Numbered from the stretch's first letter, positions 49,603-54,972 are shown. The stretch is 64,000 nt of DNA from the human T2T-CHM13v2.0 reference genome, Homo sapiens (GCF_009914755.1 NC_060940.1); one strand, 5' to 3'. Translations and numbers: made by a program. The notes: a model not told the origin generated them from the sequence alone.

Positions 49603-50109
49603 CCTACTGATGCCTGGGTTCCACCTCCAGAGATTCTGATTTAATGGGTCTAGAGTGTAAGTTGGGCATCAGAATGTTTAAAACCTTCCCAGGTGATGCT
49701 ACTGTGTGGCCATGGTTGAGAGCCACTAGTTTAATCTTAGATGAACCCTTCACTAATAAAGGTAAGGGTTCATGTAAGATTAAACTAGTGGTTCTCAACA
49801 ACTAGATAAGATGACCTGTCTTTTTTTATTTTTAAAGAAATGAAAAAATTGTTTTTCAGCAAGTTGAGTGACTGCCTGAAATTCATACAACCAATAAGTA
49901 GGAAGGTCAGAACTCAAACTCAAGTTAGTTGGTTAGTGCTCGTTCAATTTGCATTACCAATGTTGCCTCCAGGTAGCTAGTATTATGCACATGACAAAGG
50001 AAGAGAACTTGAATTTAGATATCTGGTTAAAGGTCAGACTTTGAGTTAGGGTGTAGTTAGGGCTCTATATTTGTTTTTCTGTTTTTTGTTGTTGTTGTTT
50101 GTTTTTTTT

Positions 50110-51925
50110 ACTATAAATCAGTTTATTGTGGTTCAAATAGATAAACTGACATTCAAACATCTTAAACTTTAGGAACAAAAGTTTAACATTTAAACAGAAG
50201 TACAGTTTTCAGGAAACATCCAGAAAATAATTTGTTATCTAATCCAGAGTACTGACAAAGATTTCTTCATGATAAATAAAGTGTGTTTCACCAGCAGATT
50301 TTTTTTCTTTTTTTTTTCATTCCTTCATAAAAATCACTGGCAGTTTGATTCAGACCAACTTCCTAATGACTGTGGCTCTGTACCTTAGAGGAAACTGCTA
50401 AATAAATCCCTTAGGTTAACCAATGAGATTGGCCTATAATTCAGAGGGTATAAGCAAAGCATGTAAGTGAACAAATTAAATTGTTCTTTAGAGATGATGT
50501 AAAAGCATGTCCATTACAGTAATTTTCGCCTCTGACAGATTATTCAATTTTCAGTGTTTTACTTTTTTCTGGGGGTGGGCAGGGGGTGATGTGGGAGGGA
50601 AGGGGAGGGTCTTGCTCTGTTCCCAGGCTGAAGTGCAGTGACATGTTCATGGCTCACTGCAGCCTCAACCTCCTGGGTTAAATGCAATCCTCTTACCTCC
50701 GCCTCCTGAGTAGCTGGAATTACAGGCACACACTACCTTGCCCAGCTAATTTTTTAATGTTTTATAGAGGCATGGTCCCACTATGCTGCCCAGGCTGTTC
50801 TCAAACACCTGGGCTCAAGCAATCCTCCCACCTCAGCCTCCCGAAATATGTGGATTACTTGTGTAAGCCACTGTGCCCAGCCTTACCTGCTTTAAAACAC
50901 AAACAAACGAGCAAAAAAAAAAACCCAAAAAAAAAACACTTAGGTTTTCTTGGAGTCTGTGCTAGTTGCATCTTGCAAATGCAAACCATATAATGCTCTT
51001 TAATGAAAACCTTTCCATGCACACCACTGTTAGGAAGAGCATCATTAAATCACTGCCTTCTATACCCATAAAAGGATGATTTTGAGTTTCAAGTTAAATT
51101 TACTAGAGATAGCTTGTATATATCAATCATGTCACAAAAAAATATTTCCAAAGTGTTCTCTGTTCATAAATGTCACAAATGCTTCTCCTATTTGTCAGAT
51201 CATTTTGCAACAGGTTAACTAATACTTATCTACATAAAAACCTGAAAATTGGCACAGGCAAGCATTTTGAATTAGTAGATTACCCCCATGGAACAGTATT
51301 CAGACTTACTTTGTCTTGTGGGCTCTGAGGCTCTGGGAGGTAGAGGTGGACCCTGACAGTCCAGGTCATCAACATCCACATTCAGTTGAAGCCTCTCCTC
51401 AGGCACAGTCCAGTACTGAATACCATTTATCATTCTGCAAAATGTTGTCTACATCTTTCAGGTGCTGGTCATTCTTAGATTAGCTTCTTAGCTGTTCTGT
51501 TGACGAACAGAAGACTTCAGTTTTCAGGATGGATGTTCCAGCATCTTCCACAAGCTTTCACTTTCACATTTTTCACTAAATTATTTGTTATAAATTTGAT
51601 CTCCTTCAAAAGTCCCCTGAAGTCAACTTTGGTTGTAATGTATTTGTCTCTAACGTATTCTTCAAATTCTCTTTGTTTTTTTTCCTGTCATTGGAGGAGA
51701 ACTGCACCCAGAATCTTATTTTTACTACTTCCACGTGAATGTTAAGGTACACACAGAGGTTTCATCCAGAAGTCTTCCCTCTTCTTTCTGTTAAGTACTT
51801 CAATGTGCTCATTAAGCTTCTCTTTCTCTTCCCTTTCCAACAAAGATCTAGATTCCAAGTAGTGATCTTTTTGATGAGTCCTCTATCAAACTATGACACA
51901 TGTGAAGAACATACCTGAACAACCC
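50110..51925 (-). pseudogene. TCERG1: Processed pseudogene fragment of TCERG1 (C-terminal FF-domain region plus 3' UTR), heavily decayed
   Basis: - strand reads ESRSLLEREEKEKL, QREFEEYVRDKYITTKVDFRGLLKEIKFIT, DQHLKDVDNILQNDK and GPPLPPRASEPTRQ in broken frames, matching the recalled TCERG1 C-terminus; stop at 51306-51308; no introns. Confidence 0.88.
50607..50882 (-). mobile_element. AluJ inside the TCERG1-derived 3' UTR
   Basis: Diverged reverse Alu dimer; tail replaced by a G-rich tract on +. Confidence 0.8.
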
Positions 51926-52004
51926 TCAGGGATAATGCAGGATTTTTTGAGAAAGTTCCAGGGTATCTCCTGATGTCAGTGTACTTTCAGTCCTACACCT
52001 CAGA

Positions 52005-52925
52005 GTTTTTTCTTTTTAATAACAGCTTTATTGAGATACAATTCATACCTTACATTTAAAATGTATGATTCAGTGGATTTGAGTATATTCAGAGTTGTGC
52101 AGCCTACACCACAAGCTAACTGTAGGATATTTTCATCACCCTGAAAAGGAACCCTACACCCATTAGCAGTTACTCCATTCTACCTACAGCCAGCCTAGGC
52201 AACCACTAATCTTTCTGCTTATTCTGGACATTTCATATGAATGGAATCATCATGTGATATTTTGTGACTGGCTTTTTTCACTTAATGTTTTCAAGGTTTA
52301 TCCACGTTTAGCATATATCAATCCTTTGTTTCTTTTTAGTGCCAAATAATGGCTATGGGCATGGGGTAGAATTGCTAAATCATACAGCAGCTGTTTCATC
52401 TTTCAAGGAACTGACAGTCTGTTTTCTGAAGTTGCTACACCATTTTACGTTCCCACCCGCAATTTCTGTACATCTTCACCAACAGTTACTATTATTTCTC
52501 TTTTTAACTACAGCCATTCTAATGAATGTGAATCTCAGGGTTTGTTTTGTTTTTTGTTTTTTGTTTTTGTTTTTGTTTTTTTGAGACAGAGTCTCACTCT
52601 GTCACCCAGGCTGAAGTGCAGTGGCACGATCTCAGCTCACTGCAACCTCCACCTCCTGGGCTCAAGTGACTCTCCTGCCTCAGCCTCCCAAGTAGGCGGG
52701 ACCACAGGCATGCACCACCACACCAGGCTAATTTTTGTATTTTTAGTAGAGATAAGGTTTCACCATGTTGGCCAGGCTGGTCTTGAACTCCTGACCTCAA
52801 GTGATCCACCTACCTTGGCCTCCCAAAGTACTGAGACCACAAGCGTGAGCCACTGTGCCCGGCCTCATAGTAGTTTTGATTTACACTTCCCTAATGATTG
52901 TGTCCAGCATCTACTGGCCATTTGT
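52005..52925 (-). mobile_element. L1MB-like 3' fragment containing an AluS (52541-52864)
   Basis: aacagctttattgagatacaattcatac L1M 3' end; Alu with (TTTTG)n tail. Confidence 0.8.
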
Positions 52926-52929
52926 TAGT

Positions 52930-53456
52930 GGTTTTTTCTTCTTTAAAAAACTGCTGAGACATCCATAAACATTTTCAAAATGCAGGGTATGTTTTTCAGT
53001 GTTAAGGCAACTGTTTTGATGTGTTTTCCTTTGCTCTCTATCACCAAATACTGTACATACAAATAGTAAGACTGGGCTTTGTGTTGTCCACTGTCAATCC
53101 TAAATGAAACAAAATACATGGAGACTTTGAAAATCCTTCAGAATAATGCTATAGTTAAGATTTTGCTAAAGCAAGTGTTTTTTCTAACTCCTTGAGCTGC
53201 ATATTGCCTTGAGTAATCATCAACCGGATTGTATCCTCTTCGGTGGCAGTTTTGTTTCTTCTGAATTCTTCCCTTGCCCAGTCCTTCAGGTATTTGCAAT
53301 CAGAATCATTTGGAACTTGCCAAATTGTTTGCAAAATCCTTCTGTAGAGGAGAAGAATTTGTTGCCTTCTTATGAACGTGGGCACTGGGCAGCTGAGGCA
53401 CCGGGACTCAGGGACATCAAGCGCCTGATGCATCTCATGCGACCGCACCAAAACCC
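52930..53456 (-). pseudogene. LYRM2: Processed pseudogene of LYRM2 (alternative first exon, CDS from FVRRQQ to stop, proximal 3' UTR)
   Basis: FIRRQQILLLYRRILQTIWQVPNDSDCKYLKDWAREEFRRNK...LEKTLALAKS* (stop 53155-53157) matches recalled LYRM2 at about 67/73 aa, with the LYR motif; intronless; abuts the TSD. Confidence 0.92.
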
Positions 53457-54972
53457 AGGGCTCTATATTTCTAATGTCCCTGTTTGCTCTTCTCCTGTTT
53501 CTTTGAAGCCAAGTTTGGGCCGATACCCATATTAGATTAATAAATCCTAGGCTCCTTGATGACAAAGGTGATATTACTATCTGCTGATCCAAACCATGAA
53601 TAGTCAAGGTTGAAAAATGAAATTGGCAGGAAGAAGTGTACTTTATTGGACCCAACCTTGCAATGTCAATGTTCTTAGTTCTGAGAAATTCTTGCTCCTG
53701 GAATTCATCCAGTTTCATCTTTGGATACCTGCAACCTCCCTGCTCACAACTCATTCTTGATTAAATTAGCAGATGCTGATGATAGAATGAGACTGAGGCC
53801 AGTGATGCTAAAATAATTTCTTGCTGGTGAAGGAGGCCCCAGAGGTTTTACAAAAAAATTTTTAAAAGCACCACCTAGGGAATAGAGCCAAAATGCTCAG
53901 ACACTGCATGGAAGCCAGGGATTGTATTAAATCCGAGTAATTGGAGTGGAGAGGGAGAGTGTTTTGTAGTAATTGTCATCATAGCTGGCACCAGATCTCC
54001 TCTCAGGTAAGAACATAGAAGCTTGGAACTTACGAGAGAACTTAGCTTTCCAGTATTTTTTAGGTGTGGAATGTGAAGTCATGAGGGGGGCTGGTCTGCG
54101 AAGAGTCAGCAAGGTGAAAAGAGATAACAGAGTGTCTTGGGAGGTGCAGGAGAGCAGACAGAACAGGCAGGGAATAAAGAGAGGGAGATGGAAACGTGTC
54201 TGGAAGCTGGAAATTGCCCAGGCAGGTGGCCATTGAGAGATTTCTAAAACTTCTGAGAATGGGGGTATGTAATATTCTAAATCATTTGAAATATTATGCA
54301 ATCCTTTATCTGAATGCCTTGATGGAATCTGCTTTCTACATAGCTCTACAATTGTATTTTGAGGAATAAAGGGACCAGGGTACTTATTAGGGAGAGGTCA
54401 TACAGTGCAGAAAGGAGAAAAAAAAAAAAGAACTTGCAGAATAAAGGGGTGATCTGTAAAATGAACCAATTCAGTGGAAATGAGACCCAGGGTTGTAGCT
54501 GAAGTTGACTCCCCAAGACCCTCCAAAGAGATTGGGGGGCAATACTGTGTCTCCCACAGTTTGGGGTGTTTTGAAAAAATCTCATTTAAATCTCTGAAGT
54601 CAAGGTGATGCCACTTTGTCGCAAATGGAGTCTTCAGGAAGATATCCAGTCTGCAATAGCAAATGTGGAGGCCAGACTAAATGGAACGCCCCTGAGGAAA
54701 TTATGGATGTAGCAGCAGTCCAGTTCACACGCTCATTCATTCATTCATCAAACACTGGCACAACATCTTACATTGTCAAGGCATGTAATGTGTGCCGAGA
54801 ATATAGACACTGTCCTTGCCTTCAAGGAACTTTCACCTTTGGAGTGAGAAGGCGAAAATAACTGATATTTACTGAGCTCTTTCTGTATGCAGATACTAGG
54901 CTATCTATTTCACAGGCTTTGTCTTTTTAAAATTCTCCCAGCAGCTTTATAGGTAATTATTATCCCCTATAC

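What the first reader, a model, noticed from the sequence alone, without database searches (positions are those of the whole stretch)
50059..53472. Retrocopy within a retrocopy: LYRM2 and TCERG1 pseudogenes are one TSD-bounded insertion
Seen: the same 14-bp sequence (16 with one mismatch) lies beyond the polyA (50059) and at the LYRM2 5' end (53457). On the - strand the order is LYRM2 exons > 3' UTR > L1MB/AluS > TCERG1 C-terminal CDS > TCERG1-type 3' UTR with AluJ > AATAAA > polyA, and there is no separate polyA/TSD after LYRM2. The LYRM2 CDS is little diverged, while the TCERG1 part has many indels and L1MB is eutherian-age, so those parts were already old when copied. Inference: the source LYRM2 transcript has a long 3' UTR containing an ancient TCERG1 retrocopy and ends at that retrocopy's polyA signal. 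The TCERG1 pseudogene here would then be second-generation cargo, and the parent gene would have exapted a pseudogene as its 3' end. Alternative: template switching between two RNAs during TPRT.
Basis: partly seen in the sequence, partly recalled or inferred. Interest (0 to 1): 0.85.

Follow-up and report, generated by a model that had tools for sequence, protein, structure and literature searches.

The report
LYRM2 retrocopy carrying a TCERG1 pseudogene
This stretch is one ordinary processed pseudogene of a long LYRM2 messenger RNA whose tail already contained an older TCERG1 pseudogene, and it preserves a 3' end that the LYRM2 gene itself has since lost.

Summary
An exact 14-nt direct repeat (50059-50072 and 53457-53470) brackets a 3,384-nt intronless, A-tailed insert on the minus strand.

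- The insert is colinear with the LYRM2 locus on chr6, from an alternative first exon through exon 2, exon 3, an Alu, an old L1 end and the TCERG1-like part.
- Its TCERG1 part differs from the LYRM2 locus by 4.9% and from TCERG1 by 18.9%. It shares 9 deletions, 2 insertions and an Alu insertion with the LYRM2-linked copy.
- Template switching is rejected.

Two amendments.
- The copy starts from a non-canonical first exon that lacks the LYRM2 start codon.
- The last ~510 nt, with the TCERG1 AATAAA, are absent from today's LYRM2 locus. That locus carries a chimeric Alu there, the mark of an Alu-Alu recombination deletion. Both partner Alus survive in retrocopies.

Six more loci match transcripts of this locus (chrX, chr19, chr11, chr6, chr1, chr4). 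They record two first exons, several poly(A) sites and one splice into the TCERG1 tail.

All three RefSeq TCERG1 pseudogenes are such cargo. The mechanisms are known and the case appears undescribed. Interest is moderate.

The parts
53457..53470 (-). 5' target-site duplication (14 nt exact; 16 nt with one mismatch)
53377..53456 (-). Copy of LYRM2 alternative first exon 1b (parent chr6 about 90847861-90847779; its GT donor is in the parent). It has no canonical ATG. An in-frame ATG at 53433-53431 is absent from the parent sequence.
53236..53376 (-). Copy of LYRM2 exon 2 (141 nt), joined exactly at the parental splice junctions
53155..53235 (-). Copy of the coding start of LYRM2 exon 3, up to stop codon TAA at 53157-53155. 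Exon 2 plus this part differ from the parent at 10 of 222 nt with the frame intact. Pfam Complex1_LYR E = 1.6e-13.
52027..53154 (-). Copy of the proximal LYRM2 3' UTR: unique sequence, an Alu (about 52864-52541), and an old L1-like repeat whose AATAAA (52032-52027) is the end point of the chr19 sister retrocopy
50110..51997 (-). Second-generation copy of the TCERG1 processed pseudogene embedded in the LYRM2 3' UTR. It covers at least 5 matched TCERG1 exon pieces plus 3' UTR. RefSeq TCERG1P2 (51308-51882) lies inside it.
50602..50882 (-). Alu inserted into the TCERG1 pseudogene after its first retroposition. It is absent from TCERG1 (chr5 147046925/147046936 are contiguous). Its first ~56 nt are the left half of the chimeric Alu now in the LYRM2 locus.
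50110..50601 (-). Tail of the TCERG1 pseudogene that is no longer present in the LYRM2 locus. It includes the AG acceptor (50385-50384) used by the spliced isoform fossilised on chr11.
50122..50127 (-). AATAAA that aligns with a TCERG1 poly(A) signal (the RefSeq TCERG1 span ends ~470 nt further downstream), used by the LYRM2 long transcript
50073..50109 (-). Degenerate poly(A) tail
50059..50072 (-). 3' target-site duplication

Best explanation
Window 50073-53456 (minus strand) is a single L1-mediated processed pseudogene of one long LYRM2 mRNA isoform: alternative first exon 1b, exon 2, and exon 3 with an unspliced ~3-kb 3' UTR.

At the time of copying, that 3' UTR already held an Alu, an old L1 end and a much older, 5'-truncated TCERG1 processed pseudogene in the sense orientation, itself carrying an Alu. 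The transcript was cleaved and polyadenylated at an AATAAA inherited from TCERG1. The TCERG1-like sequence here (RefSeq TCERG1P2) is therefore second-generation cargo, not a direct copy of TCERG1 mRNA.

Later, in the parent locus on chr6, unequal recombination occurred between the Alu inside the TCERG1 pseudogene and a same-orientation Alu further downstream. This deleted the rest of that Alu, the last ~0.5 kb of the pseudogene with its poly(A) signal, and an unknown spacer. It left a chimeric Alu. The chr16 copy and its sisters on chrX and chr6:67.87 Mb now preserve an ancestral LYRM2 3' end that the gene has lost.

Shown: single insertion, parentage, order of copying, the chimeric Alu. Inferred: absolute dates, and that the 5'-truncated copies on chr6, chr1 and chr4 started at the LYRM2 promoter.
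For: **Retrocopy hallmarks**
- Exact 14-nt flanking repeat, chance expectation 0.01.
- A-tail directly after the AATAAA.
- Introns removed exactly at the parental GT/AG junctions.

**Parentage**
- Colinear with the LYRM2 locus: model mB positions 18-2535 at 92.3%.
- Divergence from the parent is even along the insert: K2P 0.062 over 1302 sites (exon 2 to the L1 end) and 0.051 over 1075 sites (TCERG1 part). The same TCERG1 part is 0.22 from TCERG1.
- Relative to TCERG1, 9 deletions, 2 insertions and the Alu are shared by chr16, chrX, chr6b and the LYRM2 locus.

**Order of copying**
- Tree: (TCERG1,(chrX,(chr16,(chr6b,LYRM2 locus)))) with supports 97/97 and 87/88.
- 3 indels unite chr16, chr6b and the parent. 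4 more unite chr6b and the parent. 1 conflicts, in a T-run.

**The tail**
- The genome-wide search scored 5 of 5 candidates: chr16, chr6:67.87 Mb, chrX, TCERG1 and chr11. None is in the LYRM2 locus.

**The chimeric Alu in the parent**
- The left 56 of 56 nt are identical to the chr6b Alu. The right part shows 129 matches, 56 mismatches and 42 gap columns.
- The right part and its 3' flank instead match an intact Alu preserved in a chr4 retrocopy, including a shared 8-nt deletion.

**Independent proof that the tail belonged to the LYRM2 transcription unit**
- The chr11 copy joins the end of exon 2 directly to the tail, just after an AG that follows a pyrimidine-rich run.
Against: - The last ~510 nt cannot be matched to the present LYRM2 locus. 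Their parentage rests on sister copies and on the chimeric Alu, not on direct colinearity.
- No outgroup genome could be examined. The empty site, the pre-deletion allele and all dates are untested.
- No RNA or 3'-end data were available. Only the RefSeq gene span (90841594-90848122) encloses them.
- The tree of the short tail segment alone is unresolved.
- The (chr6b, LYRM2 locus) node has support of only 87/88.
- Target-site repeats are clear for chr16 and chr19, modest for chr4 (15 of 18 nt; 29 of 2000 shuffles reach the score) and not evident for chrX.
Confidence: 0.9

Rival explanations
1. Template switching during target-primed reverse transcription joined an LYRM2 mRNA to a separate TCERG1 (or TCERG1-pseudogene) RNA.
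For: Chimeric retrocopies formed by L1 template switching are a described class (search listings and abstract starts only, for example bioRxiv 10.1101/2025.02.02.635956). The last 510 nt have no counterpart in today's LYRM2 locus.
Against: - The junction between the L1 end and the TCERG1 part, and about 1.1 kb of TCERG1-derived sequence, lie in genomic DNA inside the LYRM2 gene span and are colinear with the insert.
- The TCERG1 part is 4.9% from that locus and 18.9% from TCERG1.
- The same architecture recurs in copies of different ages on chrX and chr6.
- The missing tail is explained by a chimeric Alu whose two partners are both preserved.
Confidence: 0.02
2. Two separate insertions at chr16: a TCERG1 retrocopy first, then an LYRM2 retrocopy landing next to it, or the reverse order.
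For: RefSeq annotates only a TCERG1 pseudogene here (TCERG1P2) and no LYRM2 pseudogene (annotation given with the finding).
Against: - There is one repeat pair and one tail for the whole 3.4 kb.
- There is no break in colinearity with the LYRM2 locus across the supposed boundary.
- Divergence from the parent is equal on both sides, 0.062 and 0.051.
- The Alu insertion and the indels are shared with the LYRM2-linked copy.
Confidence: 0.02
3. The chr16 copy was made from the transcript of another retrocopy (for example chrX), or from a lost LYRM2 paralogue, and not from the chr6 LYRM2 locus.
For: The tail is found only in retrocopies, not in the chr6 locus. chrX has the same long architecture.
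Against: - chr16 uses exon 1b, while chrX and chr19 use exon 1a.
- chr16 groups with the chr6 locus against chrX and chr19 (96/96; 97/97).
- 3 indels unite chr16, chr6b and the parent to the exclusion of chrX.
- No other intron-containing locus appeared in the genome searches. Those searches score only the best candidates and do not show closed regions.
Confidence: 0.04
4. DNA-level (segmental) duplication of the LYRM2 region to chr16.
For: Long colinear match that includes repeats.
Against: Both introns are missing exactly at the splice junctions. An A-tail follows the AATAAA, and a 14-nt target-site repeat flanks the block.
Confidence: 0.01

Closest known systems
L1-mediated processed pseudogenes of mRNAs with repeats embedded in the 3' UTR (Farre et al. 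2016, PMC5199112: abstract seen. Hallmarks as listed in Casola and Betran 2017, PMC5470649: passage of section 5 seen)
   Same: Intronless copy, remnant poly(A) tail and flanking target-site duplication. Whatever sat in the parental 3' UTR (here two Alus and an L1 end) is copied along.
   Different: The embedded passenger includes another gene's processed pseudogene, so gene annotation assigns the copy to the wrong parent.
Retrocopies exapted as 3' exons or UTRs of host genes (Baertsch et al. 2008, PMC2584115: Table 1 passage seen, 18 'new 3' exon' cases. Kubiak et al. 2020, PMC7290577: passage of section 3.3.3/23 seen, 56 retrocopies in 71 transcripts, mostly in UTRs)
   Same: A sense-oriented retrocopy supplies 3' UTR sequence, a poly(A) signal and, in one isoform, a spliced terminal exon to the host gene LYRM2.
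   Different: The evidence here is a series of retrocopies and not ESTs or mRNAs. The exapted end has since been deleted from the host gene. LYRM2 and TCERG1 have 0 occurrences in the main text of PMC2584115. The supplementary tables of both papers could not be opened.
Alu recombination-mediated deletion (Han et al. 2007, PMC2041999: listing and start of abstract seen. Sen et al. 2006 is recalled only)
   Same: Two same-orientation Alus, one chimeric Alu left behind, intervening DNA lost.
   Different: Both pre-recombination partners are documented within the same genome by older retrocopies of the locus, not by an outgroup species. The deletion removed a functional poly(A) site of a gene.
Chimeric retrocopies by L1 template switching (listings and abstract starts only)
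   Same: The end product looks like two genes' sequences fused inside one repeat-bounded, A-tailed insertion.
   Different: Here the fusion pre-exists in the genomic parent locus, so no switch is needed. The defining feature was tested and not met.

Membership tests
L1-mediated processed pseudogene (retrocopy) | Introns absent exactly at the parental splice junctions | tested here: met
   The exon 1b/2 and 2/3 junctions of the copy coincide with GT...AG boundaries in the chr6 locus.
L1-mediated processed pseudogene (retrocopy) | Poly(A) tail after a poly(A) signal | tested here: met
   AATAAA at 50127-50122 and a degenerate A-run at 50109-50073.
L1-mediated processed pseudogene (retrocopy) | Target-site duplication directly flanking the insert | tested here: met
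   14 nt exact, 2 occurrences in the window, expectation 0.01.
L1-mediated processed pseudogene (retrocopy) | L1 endonuclease-like target (TT|AAAA-like; this consensus is recalled) | tested here: inconclusive
   If the repeat is 16 nt, the site reads TT|AGAAAT. If it is 14 nt, the site reads AG|AAATAT. Compatible but not diagnostic.
L1-mediated processed pseudogene (retrocopy) | Empty site with one repeat copy in an outgroup | not testable with these tools
   No primate genomes are available. The flanks are not masked repeats, so no paralogous empty site exists either.
Chimeric retrocopy by template switching | The junction of the two RNA-derived parts exists in no genomic source locus | tested here: not met
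   The junction and about 1.1 kb beyond it are present and colinear in the LYRM2 locus.
Retrocopy exapted as host-gene 3' UTR or terminal exon | Retrocopy lies in the sense orientation inside the host transcription unit | tested here: met
   The TCERG1-derived block at chr6 about 90844441-90845426 (minus strand) lies inside the RefSeq LYRM2 span 90841594-90848122, minus strand.
Retrocopy exapted as host-gene 3' UTR or terminal exon | Mature host transcripts contain it and end at its poly(A) signal | tested here: met
   The evidence is indirect. Retrocopies on chr16 and chrX (spliced) and chr6b (5'-truncated) run from LYRM2 sequence through it. The chr11 copy is spliced from exon 2 into its tail. 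The A-tails of chr16 and chr6b begin 12-17 nt after the same AATAAA; the tail ends of chrX and chr11 are unclear or degraded.
Retrocopy exapted as host-gene 3' UTR or terminal exon | Direct RNA or 3'-end sequencing evidence | not testable with these tools
   No expression or poly(A)-site data are available here, and the chr6 exon table is not in /data.
Alu recombination-mediated deletion | Chimeric Alu with an abrupt switch of parentage | tested here: met
   Left 56 of 56 nt identical to the chr6b Alu. Right part 129 matches, 56 mismatches and 42 gap columns. The informative columns switch from one partner to the other at GGCTGAGGTGGG.
Alu recombination-mediated deletion | Two same-orientation partner Alus identifiable, with the intervening DNA lost | tested here: met
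   The upstream partner is in chr16, chrX and chr6b. The downstream partner, with its own flanking repeat, is in the chr4 retrocopy and shares an 8-nt deletion and the 3' flank with the chimera. The tail is absent from the locus.
Alu recombination-mediated deletion | Pre-deletion allele at the orthologous locus of an outgroup | not testable with these tools
   No primate genomes are available.

The most novel reading that the evidence does not exclude
The LYRM2 retrocopy series is a dated fossil record of one gene's 3'-end history. A TCERG1 pseudogene's poly(A) signal and a splice acceptor in its tail were captured very early: the chr11 copy is as diverged as the pseudogene is from TCERG1. They were used for tens of millions of years and then deleted by Alu-Alu recombination in the ape or human lineage.

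If that loss forced all long LYRM2 transcripts to the distal site, which overlaps the 3' end of ANKRD6 tail-to-tail by about 1.6 kb, it could have changed the regulation of LYRM2, ANKRD6 or both in a lineage-specific way.

A weaker variant is that the intact 73-codon LYR reading frame in the chr16 copy, with its newly arisen in-frame ATG, is expressed.
Probability: 0.1. Interest if true: 0.55.

Novelty: new member of a known kind. Interest (0 to 1): 0.35.

Why it matters
**Annotation.** All 3 of the 3 RefSeq-annotated TCERG1 pseudogenes in this assembly lie inside copies that match LYRM2-locus transcripts. These are TCERG1P2 on chr16, TCERG1P1 on chrX and LOC100420940 on chr6. The one first-generation TCERG1 retrocopy, inside the LYRM2 3' UTR, carries no pseudogene annotation. 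The LYRM2 part of the chr16 copy is also unannotated. Pipelines that assign pseudogene parents by best protein match will miscount retroposition events and misassign parents in such cases.

**Method.** The case shows that retrocopies of different ages can stand in for outgroup genomes. Here they reconstruct a lost 3' end, identify both partners of an Alu-Alu deletion, and record alternative promoters, splice forms and poly(A) sites of a gene.

**Biology.** No new mechanism is involved.

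Tried and rejected
- **Paralogous empty site at chr16.** The sequence next to the insert is not masked as repeat (masked intervals 49302-49601, 50552-50770, 52187-52306 and 52535-52888). No such comparison is possible, and I did not search the flanks.
- **Repeat family names.** No tool assigns L1MB, AluS or AluJ. 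One search shows only an old dispersed repeat.
- **Tree of the tail alone with the chr11 copy.** It was unresolved, with both inner branches open. I use only distances and the splice junction from it.
- **Distal LYRM2 gene span.** I searched it to see whether younger retrocopies carry the post-deletion 3' UTR. None was found. Instead I found an old chr4 copy of the distal part, and on chrX an inverted two-piece copy that ends at the ANKRD6 3' end. I set the chrX copy aside as an ANKRD6 retrocopy.
- **RefSeq LOC100420940.** Its span extends about 730 nt beyond the chr6b copy. I first considered that it might be a longer, first-generation TCERG1 retrocopy. I rejected this because that stretch matches about 38 dispersed L1-like copies at 91-92%, and the copy starts abruptly inside it.
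- **Selection on the LYRM2 frame.** dN/dS is 0.59 for chr16 and 0.30 for chr19 against the parent. There are only 9-10 differences, and half of the path is the constrained parent, so no claim of constraint is made.
- **Literature.** These searches of the library found 0 papers: TCERG1P1 or TCERG1P2; LYRM2 plus retrocopy; six phrases for a retrocopy of a retrocopy; TCERG1 pseudogene or retrocopy and LYRM2 transcript phrases. LYRM2 plus pseudogene gave 4 papers and LYRM2 plus Alu gave 2. From their titles, and from the passages of one of them (PMC10357943), none is about this. Supplementary tables are closed, including Table S5 of PMC7290577 and the additional files of PMC2584115. They may list a TCERG1 retrocopy in LYRM2.

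Full report
**Observation**

The 14-nt string occurs twice in the 64-kb window, at 50059-50072 and 53457-53470. The chance expectation is 0.01, and 0 of 100 shuffles gave two matches. It is also family D6 of the repeat finder. Between the two copies lie 3,384 nt that end in AATAAA (50127-50122) and a degenerate A-run (50109-50073).

**Anatomy** (minus strand)

| Window | Feature |
|---|---|
| 53456-53377 | LYRM2 first-exon sequence |
| 53376-53236 | exon 2 |
| 53235 onward | exon 3; stop codon at 53157-53155 |
| about 52864-52541 | Alu within the 3' UTR |
| ends 52032-52027 | old dispersed L1-like repeat ending in AATAAA; 38 further dispersed matches at 69-81% identity among 40 scored of 3236 candidates |
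| about 51997-50110 | TCERG1-derived sequence |
| about 50882-50602 | second Alu, interrupting the TCERG1 part |

No tool here assigns them.

**Parent locus**

A whole-genome search with the insert found a colinear set of hits in LYRM2 on chr6, minus strand. Direct BLAST against the locus gives:
- 53459-53377 to chr6 90847861-90847779.
- 53377-53235 to 90847258-90847116.
- 53237-50927 to 90846730-90844435, at 92.3% over 2,341 columns.
- A continuation into the second Alu.

The locus has two alternative first exons, each with a GT donor. The canonical exon 1a carries the ATG. Exon 1b lies about 190-270 nt further into intron 1. The chr16 copy uses exon 1b (spliced model 18-2535, 92.3%). The chrX and chr19 copies use exon 1a. 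So the copy is intronless, and its junctions are the parental splice junctions.

The coding part it retains differs from the parent at 10 of 222 nt, with 7 amino-acid changes, and has no frameshift or stop. dN/dS is 0.59 on very few sites. Pfam finds Complex1_LYR in it, E = 1.6e-13.

**The TCERG1 part is cargo**

TCERG1 exons on chr5 match window 51997-50121 piecewise at 77-87%. They are contiguous (147046925/147046936) where the window has the second Alu.

In a five-way alignment, the chr16 TCERG1 part compares as follows:

| Compared with | p-distance | K2P | Sites |
|---|---|---|---|
| LYRM2 locus | 0.049 | 0.051 | 1075 |
| TCERG1 | 0.189 | 0.22 | 1006 |

Relative to TCERG1, 9 deletions, 2 insertions and the Alu are shared by chr16, chrX, chr6:67.87 Mb ('chr6b') and the LYRM2 locus.

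Divergence of the insert from the parent is even along its length. K2P is 0.062 over 1302 sites for exon 2 to the L1 end and 0.051 for the TCERG1 part. This is what one copying event predicts.

**Order of events**

The maximum-likelihood tree rooted on TCERG1 is (chrX,(chr16,(chr6b,LYRM2 locus))), with supports 97/97 and 87/88. Among the indels:
- 3 unite chr16, chr6b and the parent against chrX.
- 4 more unite chr6b and the parent.
- 1 conflicts, in a T-run.

In the 5' half, chr16 groups with the parent against chrX and chr19 (96/96). The parent locus was therefore sampled repeatedly by retroposition while it accumulated changes.

**The missing tail**

The last ~510 nt of the insert (50621-50110) have no match in chr6:90838000-90848000. 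Genome-wide, they occur only in chr16, chr6b, chrX, TCERG1 itself and a chr11 locus. All 5 of 5 candidates were scored.

In the LYRM2 locus, the Alu that interrupts the TCERG1 part is identical to the chr6b copy for its first 56 of 56 nt. It then changes abruptly: 129 matches, 56 mismatches and 42 gap columns. It ends in its own A-tail and unrelated flank.

A search with the distal part of the LYRM2 gene span found a chr4 copy at 72916754-72919439. It has K2P 0.080 to chr6 over 2484 sites. It has an A-run after an AATAAA that lies about 50 nt before the annotated LYRM2 end, and an imperfect 15-of-18-nt flanking repeat that 29 of 2000 shuffles reach. It lies on the LYRM2 strand.

That copy begins 14 nt upstream of an intact Alu with its own flanking repeat. 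The right half of the chimeric Alu and its 3' flank match this Alu, including an 8-nt deletion.

So the parent now carries a hybrid of two same-orientation Alus, which is the signature of an Alu recombination-mediated deletion. Both partners are preserved in older retrocopies. The deletion removed the rest of the first Alu, the TCERG1 tail with its poly(A) signal, and a spacer of unknown length. Because chr6b is the closest copy to the parent (K2P 0.038) and still has the tail, the deletion is younger than chr6b.

**The tail was part of LYRM2 transcripts**

- On chr16 and chr6b an A-run begins at the same point, 12-17 nt after the AATAAA that aligns with a TCERG1 poly(A) signal. chr16 carries a degenerate 37-nt run and chr6b a run of about 14 A. 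On chrX only about 6 A are followed by other sequence before a longer A-run, and the chr11 tail is short and degraded.
- The chr11 locus (L016, about 1268-1700) consists of the last ~12 nt of exon 1a and all of exon 2. Directly after the exon 2 donor position comes the tail, starting at the base after an AG that follows a pyrimidine-rich run (window 50385-50384). It shares with the other copies a ~50-nt segment absent from present TCERG1.
- I read this as a retrocopy of a spliced isoform with a terminal exon inside the pseudogene tail. Its distance to the other tails (K2P 0.25-0.29) equals their distance to TCERG1. The capture of the pseudogene end by LYRM2 is therefore about as old as the pseudogene.

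**Other copies**

- chr19:38501778-38503130 has exon 1a, exon 2 and exon 3. It ends at the L1 AATAAA with an A-tail and a ~10-nt flanking repeat.
- chr6b is 5'-truncated 33 nt inside the TCERG1 part and sits inside L1-like sequence.
- chr1:184607867-184608088 is a 220-nt piece, 87% identical to the LYRM2 locus and 77% to TCERG1. It ends in an A-rich run just before the Alu site.

Counting the window copy, 7 loci match transcripts of this locus. For the 5'-truncated copies on chr6b, chr1 and chr4, an origin at the LYRM2 promoter is inferred, not shown.

**Dates (inference)**

I use a recalled neutral rate of about 1-1.5e-9 per site per year and T = K2P/2µ.

| Copy | K2P | Estimated age |
|---|---|---|
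| chr6b | 0.038 | about 13-19 Myr |
| chr16 | 0.051-0.062 | about 17-31 Myr |
| chrX, chr19, chr4 | 0.075-0.10 | about 25-50 Myr |
| chr11 and the first TCERG1 retroposition | 0.22-0.29 | far older |

These are rough and untested against outgroups.

**Rivals**

- Template switching is excluded because the junction exists in the parent genome.
- Two adjacent insertions are excluded by the single repeat pair and tail, the unbroken colinearity and the even divergence.
- Segmental duplication is excluded by intron loss.
- Derivation from another retrocopy is unlikely, given the different first exon and the tree.

**Comparison with what is known**

Each element is a described kind:
- Processed pseudogenes that carry 3' UTR repeats (PMC5199112, abstract; hallmarks in PMC5470649, one passage).
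- Retrocopies exapted as 3' exons or UTRs (PMC2584115, Table 1 passage; PMC7290577, one passage).
- Alu recombination-mediated deletion (PMC2041999, listing and abstract start).

Searches for this specific case found nothing. The 6 papers that mention LYRM2 with 'pseudogene' or 'Alu' do not concern it, judging by their titles and by the passages of one. Supplementary tables that might list it are closed. I file it as a new member of known kinds.

There is a useful annotation consequence. All 3 of the 3 RefSeq TCERG1 pseudogenes (TCERG1P1, TCERG1P2, LOC100420940) lie inside copies that match LYRM2-locus transcripts. The first-generation copy inside LYRM2 has no pseudogene annotation.

**Limits**

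- There are no outgroup genomes, no RNA or poly(A)-site data, and no exon table for chr6.
- Genome searches score only the best candidates and hide closed regions, so 'only these copies' is a lower bound.

Noticed in passing
window 53155-53754 (minus): A mechanical 199-aa ORF runs from an ATG in the upstream flank through the target-site repeat and exon 1b into the intact LYR frame. Pfam Complex1_LYR matches residues 131-189. Within the copy, an in-frame ATG at 53433-53431 is not present in the parent's exon 1b. There is no evidence of expression.
   Followed up: partly
L016 about 1268-1700 (chr11:44812767-44813199): A very old LYRM2 retrocopy in which exon 2 is joined directly to the last ~270 nt of the TCERG1-pseudogene tail, just after an AG. 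I read it as a fossil of a spliced isoform. Alus flank it on both sides.
   Followed up: yes
L019 (chr4:72916754-72919589, minus): An A-tailed copy of the distal LYRM2-strand sequence (K2P 0.080 to chr6). It starts 14 nt before an intact Alu and lies inside the span of the RefSeq pseudogene LOC100422024 (UGT2B7 pseudogene). It preserves the downstream partner of the Alu-Alu deletion.
   Followed up: yes
L020 (chrX:74105015-74106124): Two abutting pieces of chr6 90842087-90843205 in opposite orientations, one ending at the annotated ANKRD6 3' end. This looks like an ANKRD6 3' UTR retrocopy with a 5' inversion (twin-priming-like; that name is recalled).
   Followed up: partly
L017 1368-1589 (chr1:184607867-184608088): A 220-nt fragment of the LYRM2-embedded TCERG1 3' UTR, 87% identical to the LYRM2 locus and 77% to TCERG1. 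It ends in an A-rich run just before the Alu insertion site. The poly(A) site or priming event behind it is unexplained.
   Followed up: partly
L014 (chr6:67866787-67867516): RefSeq LOC100420940 ('TCERG1 pseudogene') extends about 730 nt beyond the actual copy. That stretch matches many dispersed L1-like copies at 91-92%, so the annotated span seems too long on that side.
   Followed up: partly
LYRM2 locus exon 2 (chr6, L003/L011), codon at CDS-part positions 90-92: The reference LYRM2 locus reads GAA (E) where the chr16, chr19 and chrX retrocopies all read AAG (K). This is recorded as a sequence observation only. I did not check it against protein databases.
   Followed up: no
L015 about 2480-2530 and L005 about 2900-2930: The chrX and chr19 copies share several bases in exon 1a, around the start codon, that differ from the present parent locus. 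Both show an 'AAAGACCAAA'-like string after their A-tails. The first fits changes in the parent after they were copied. The second is unexplained and may be chance.
   Followed up: no
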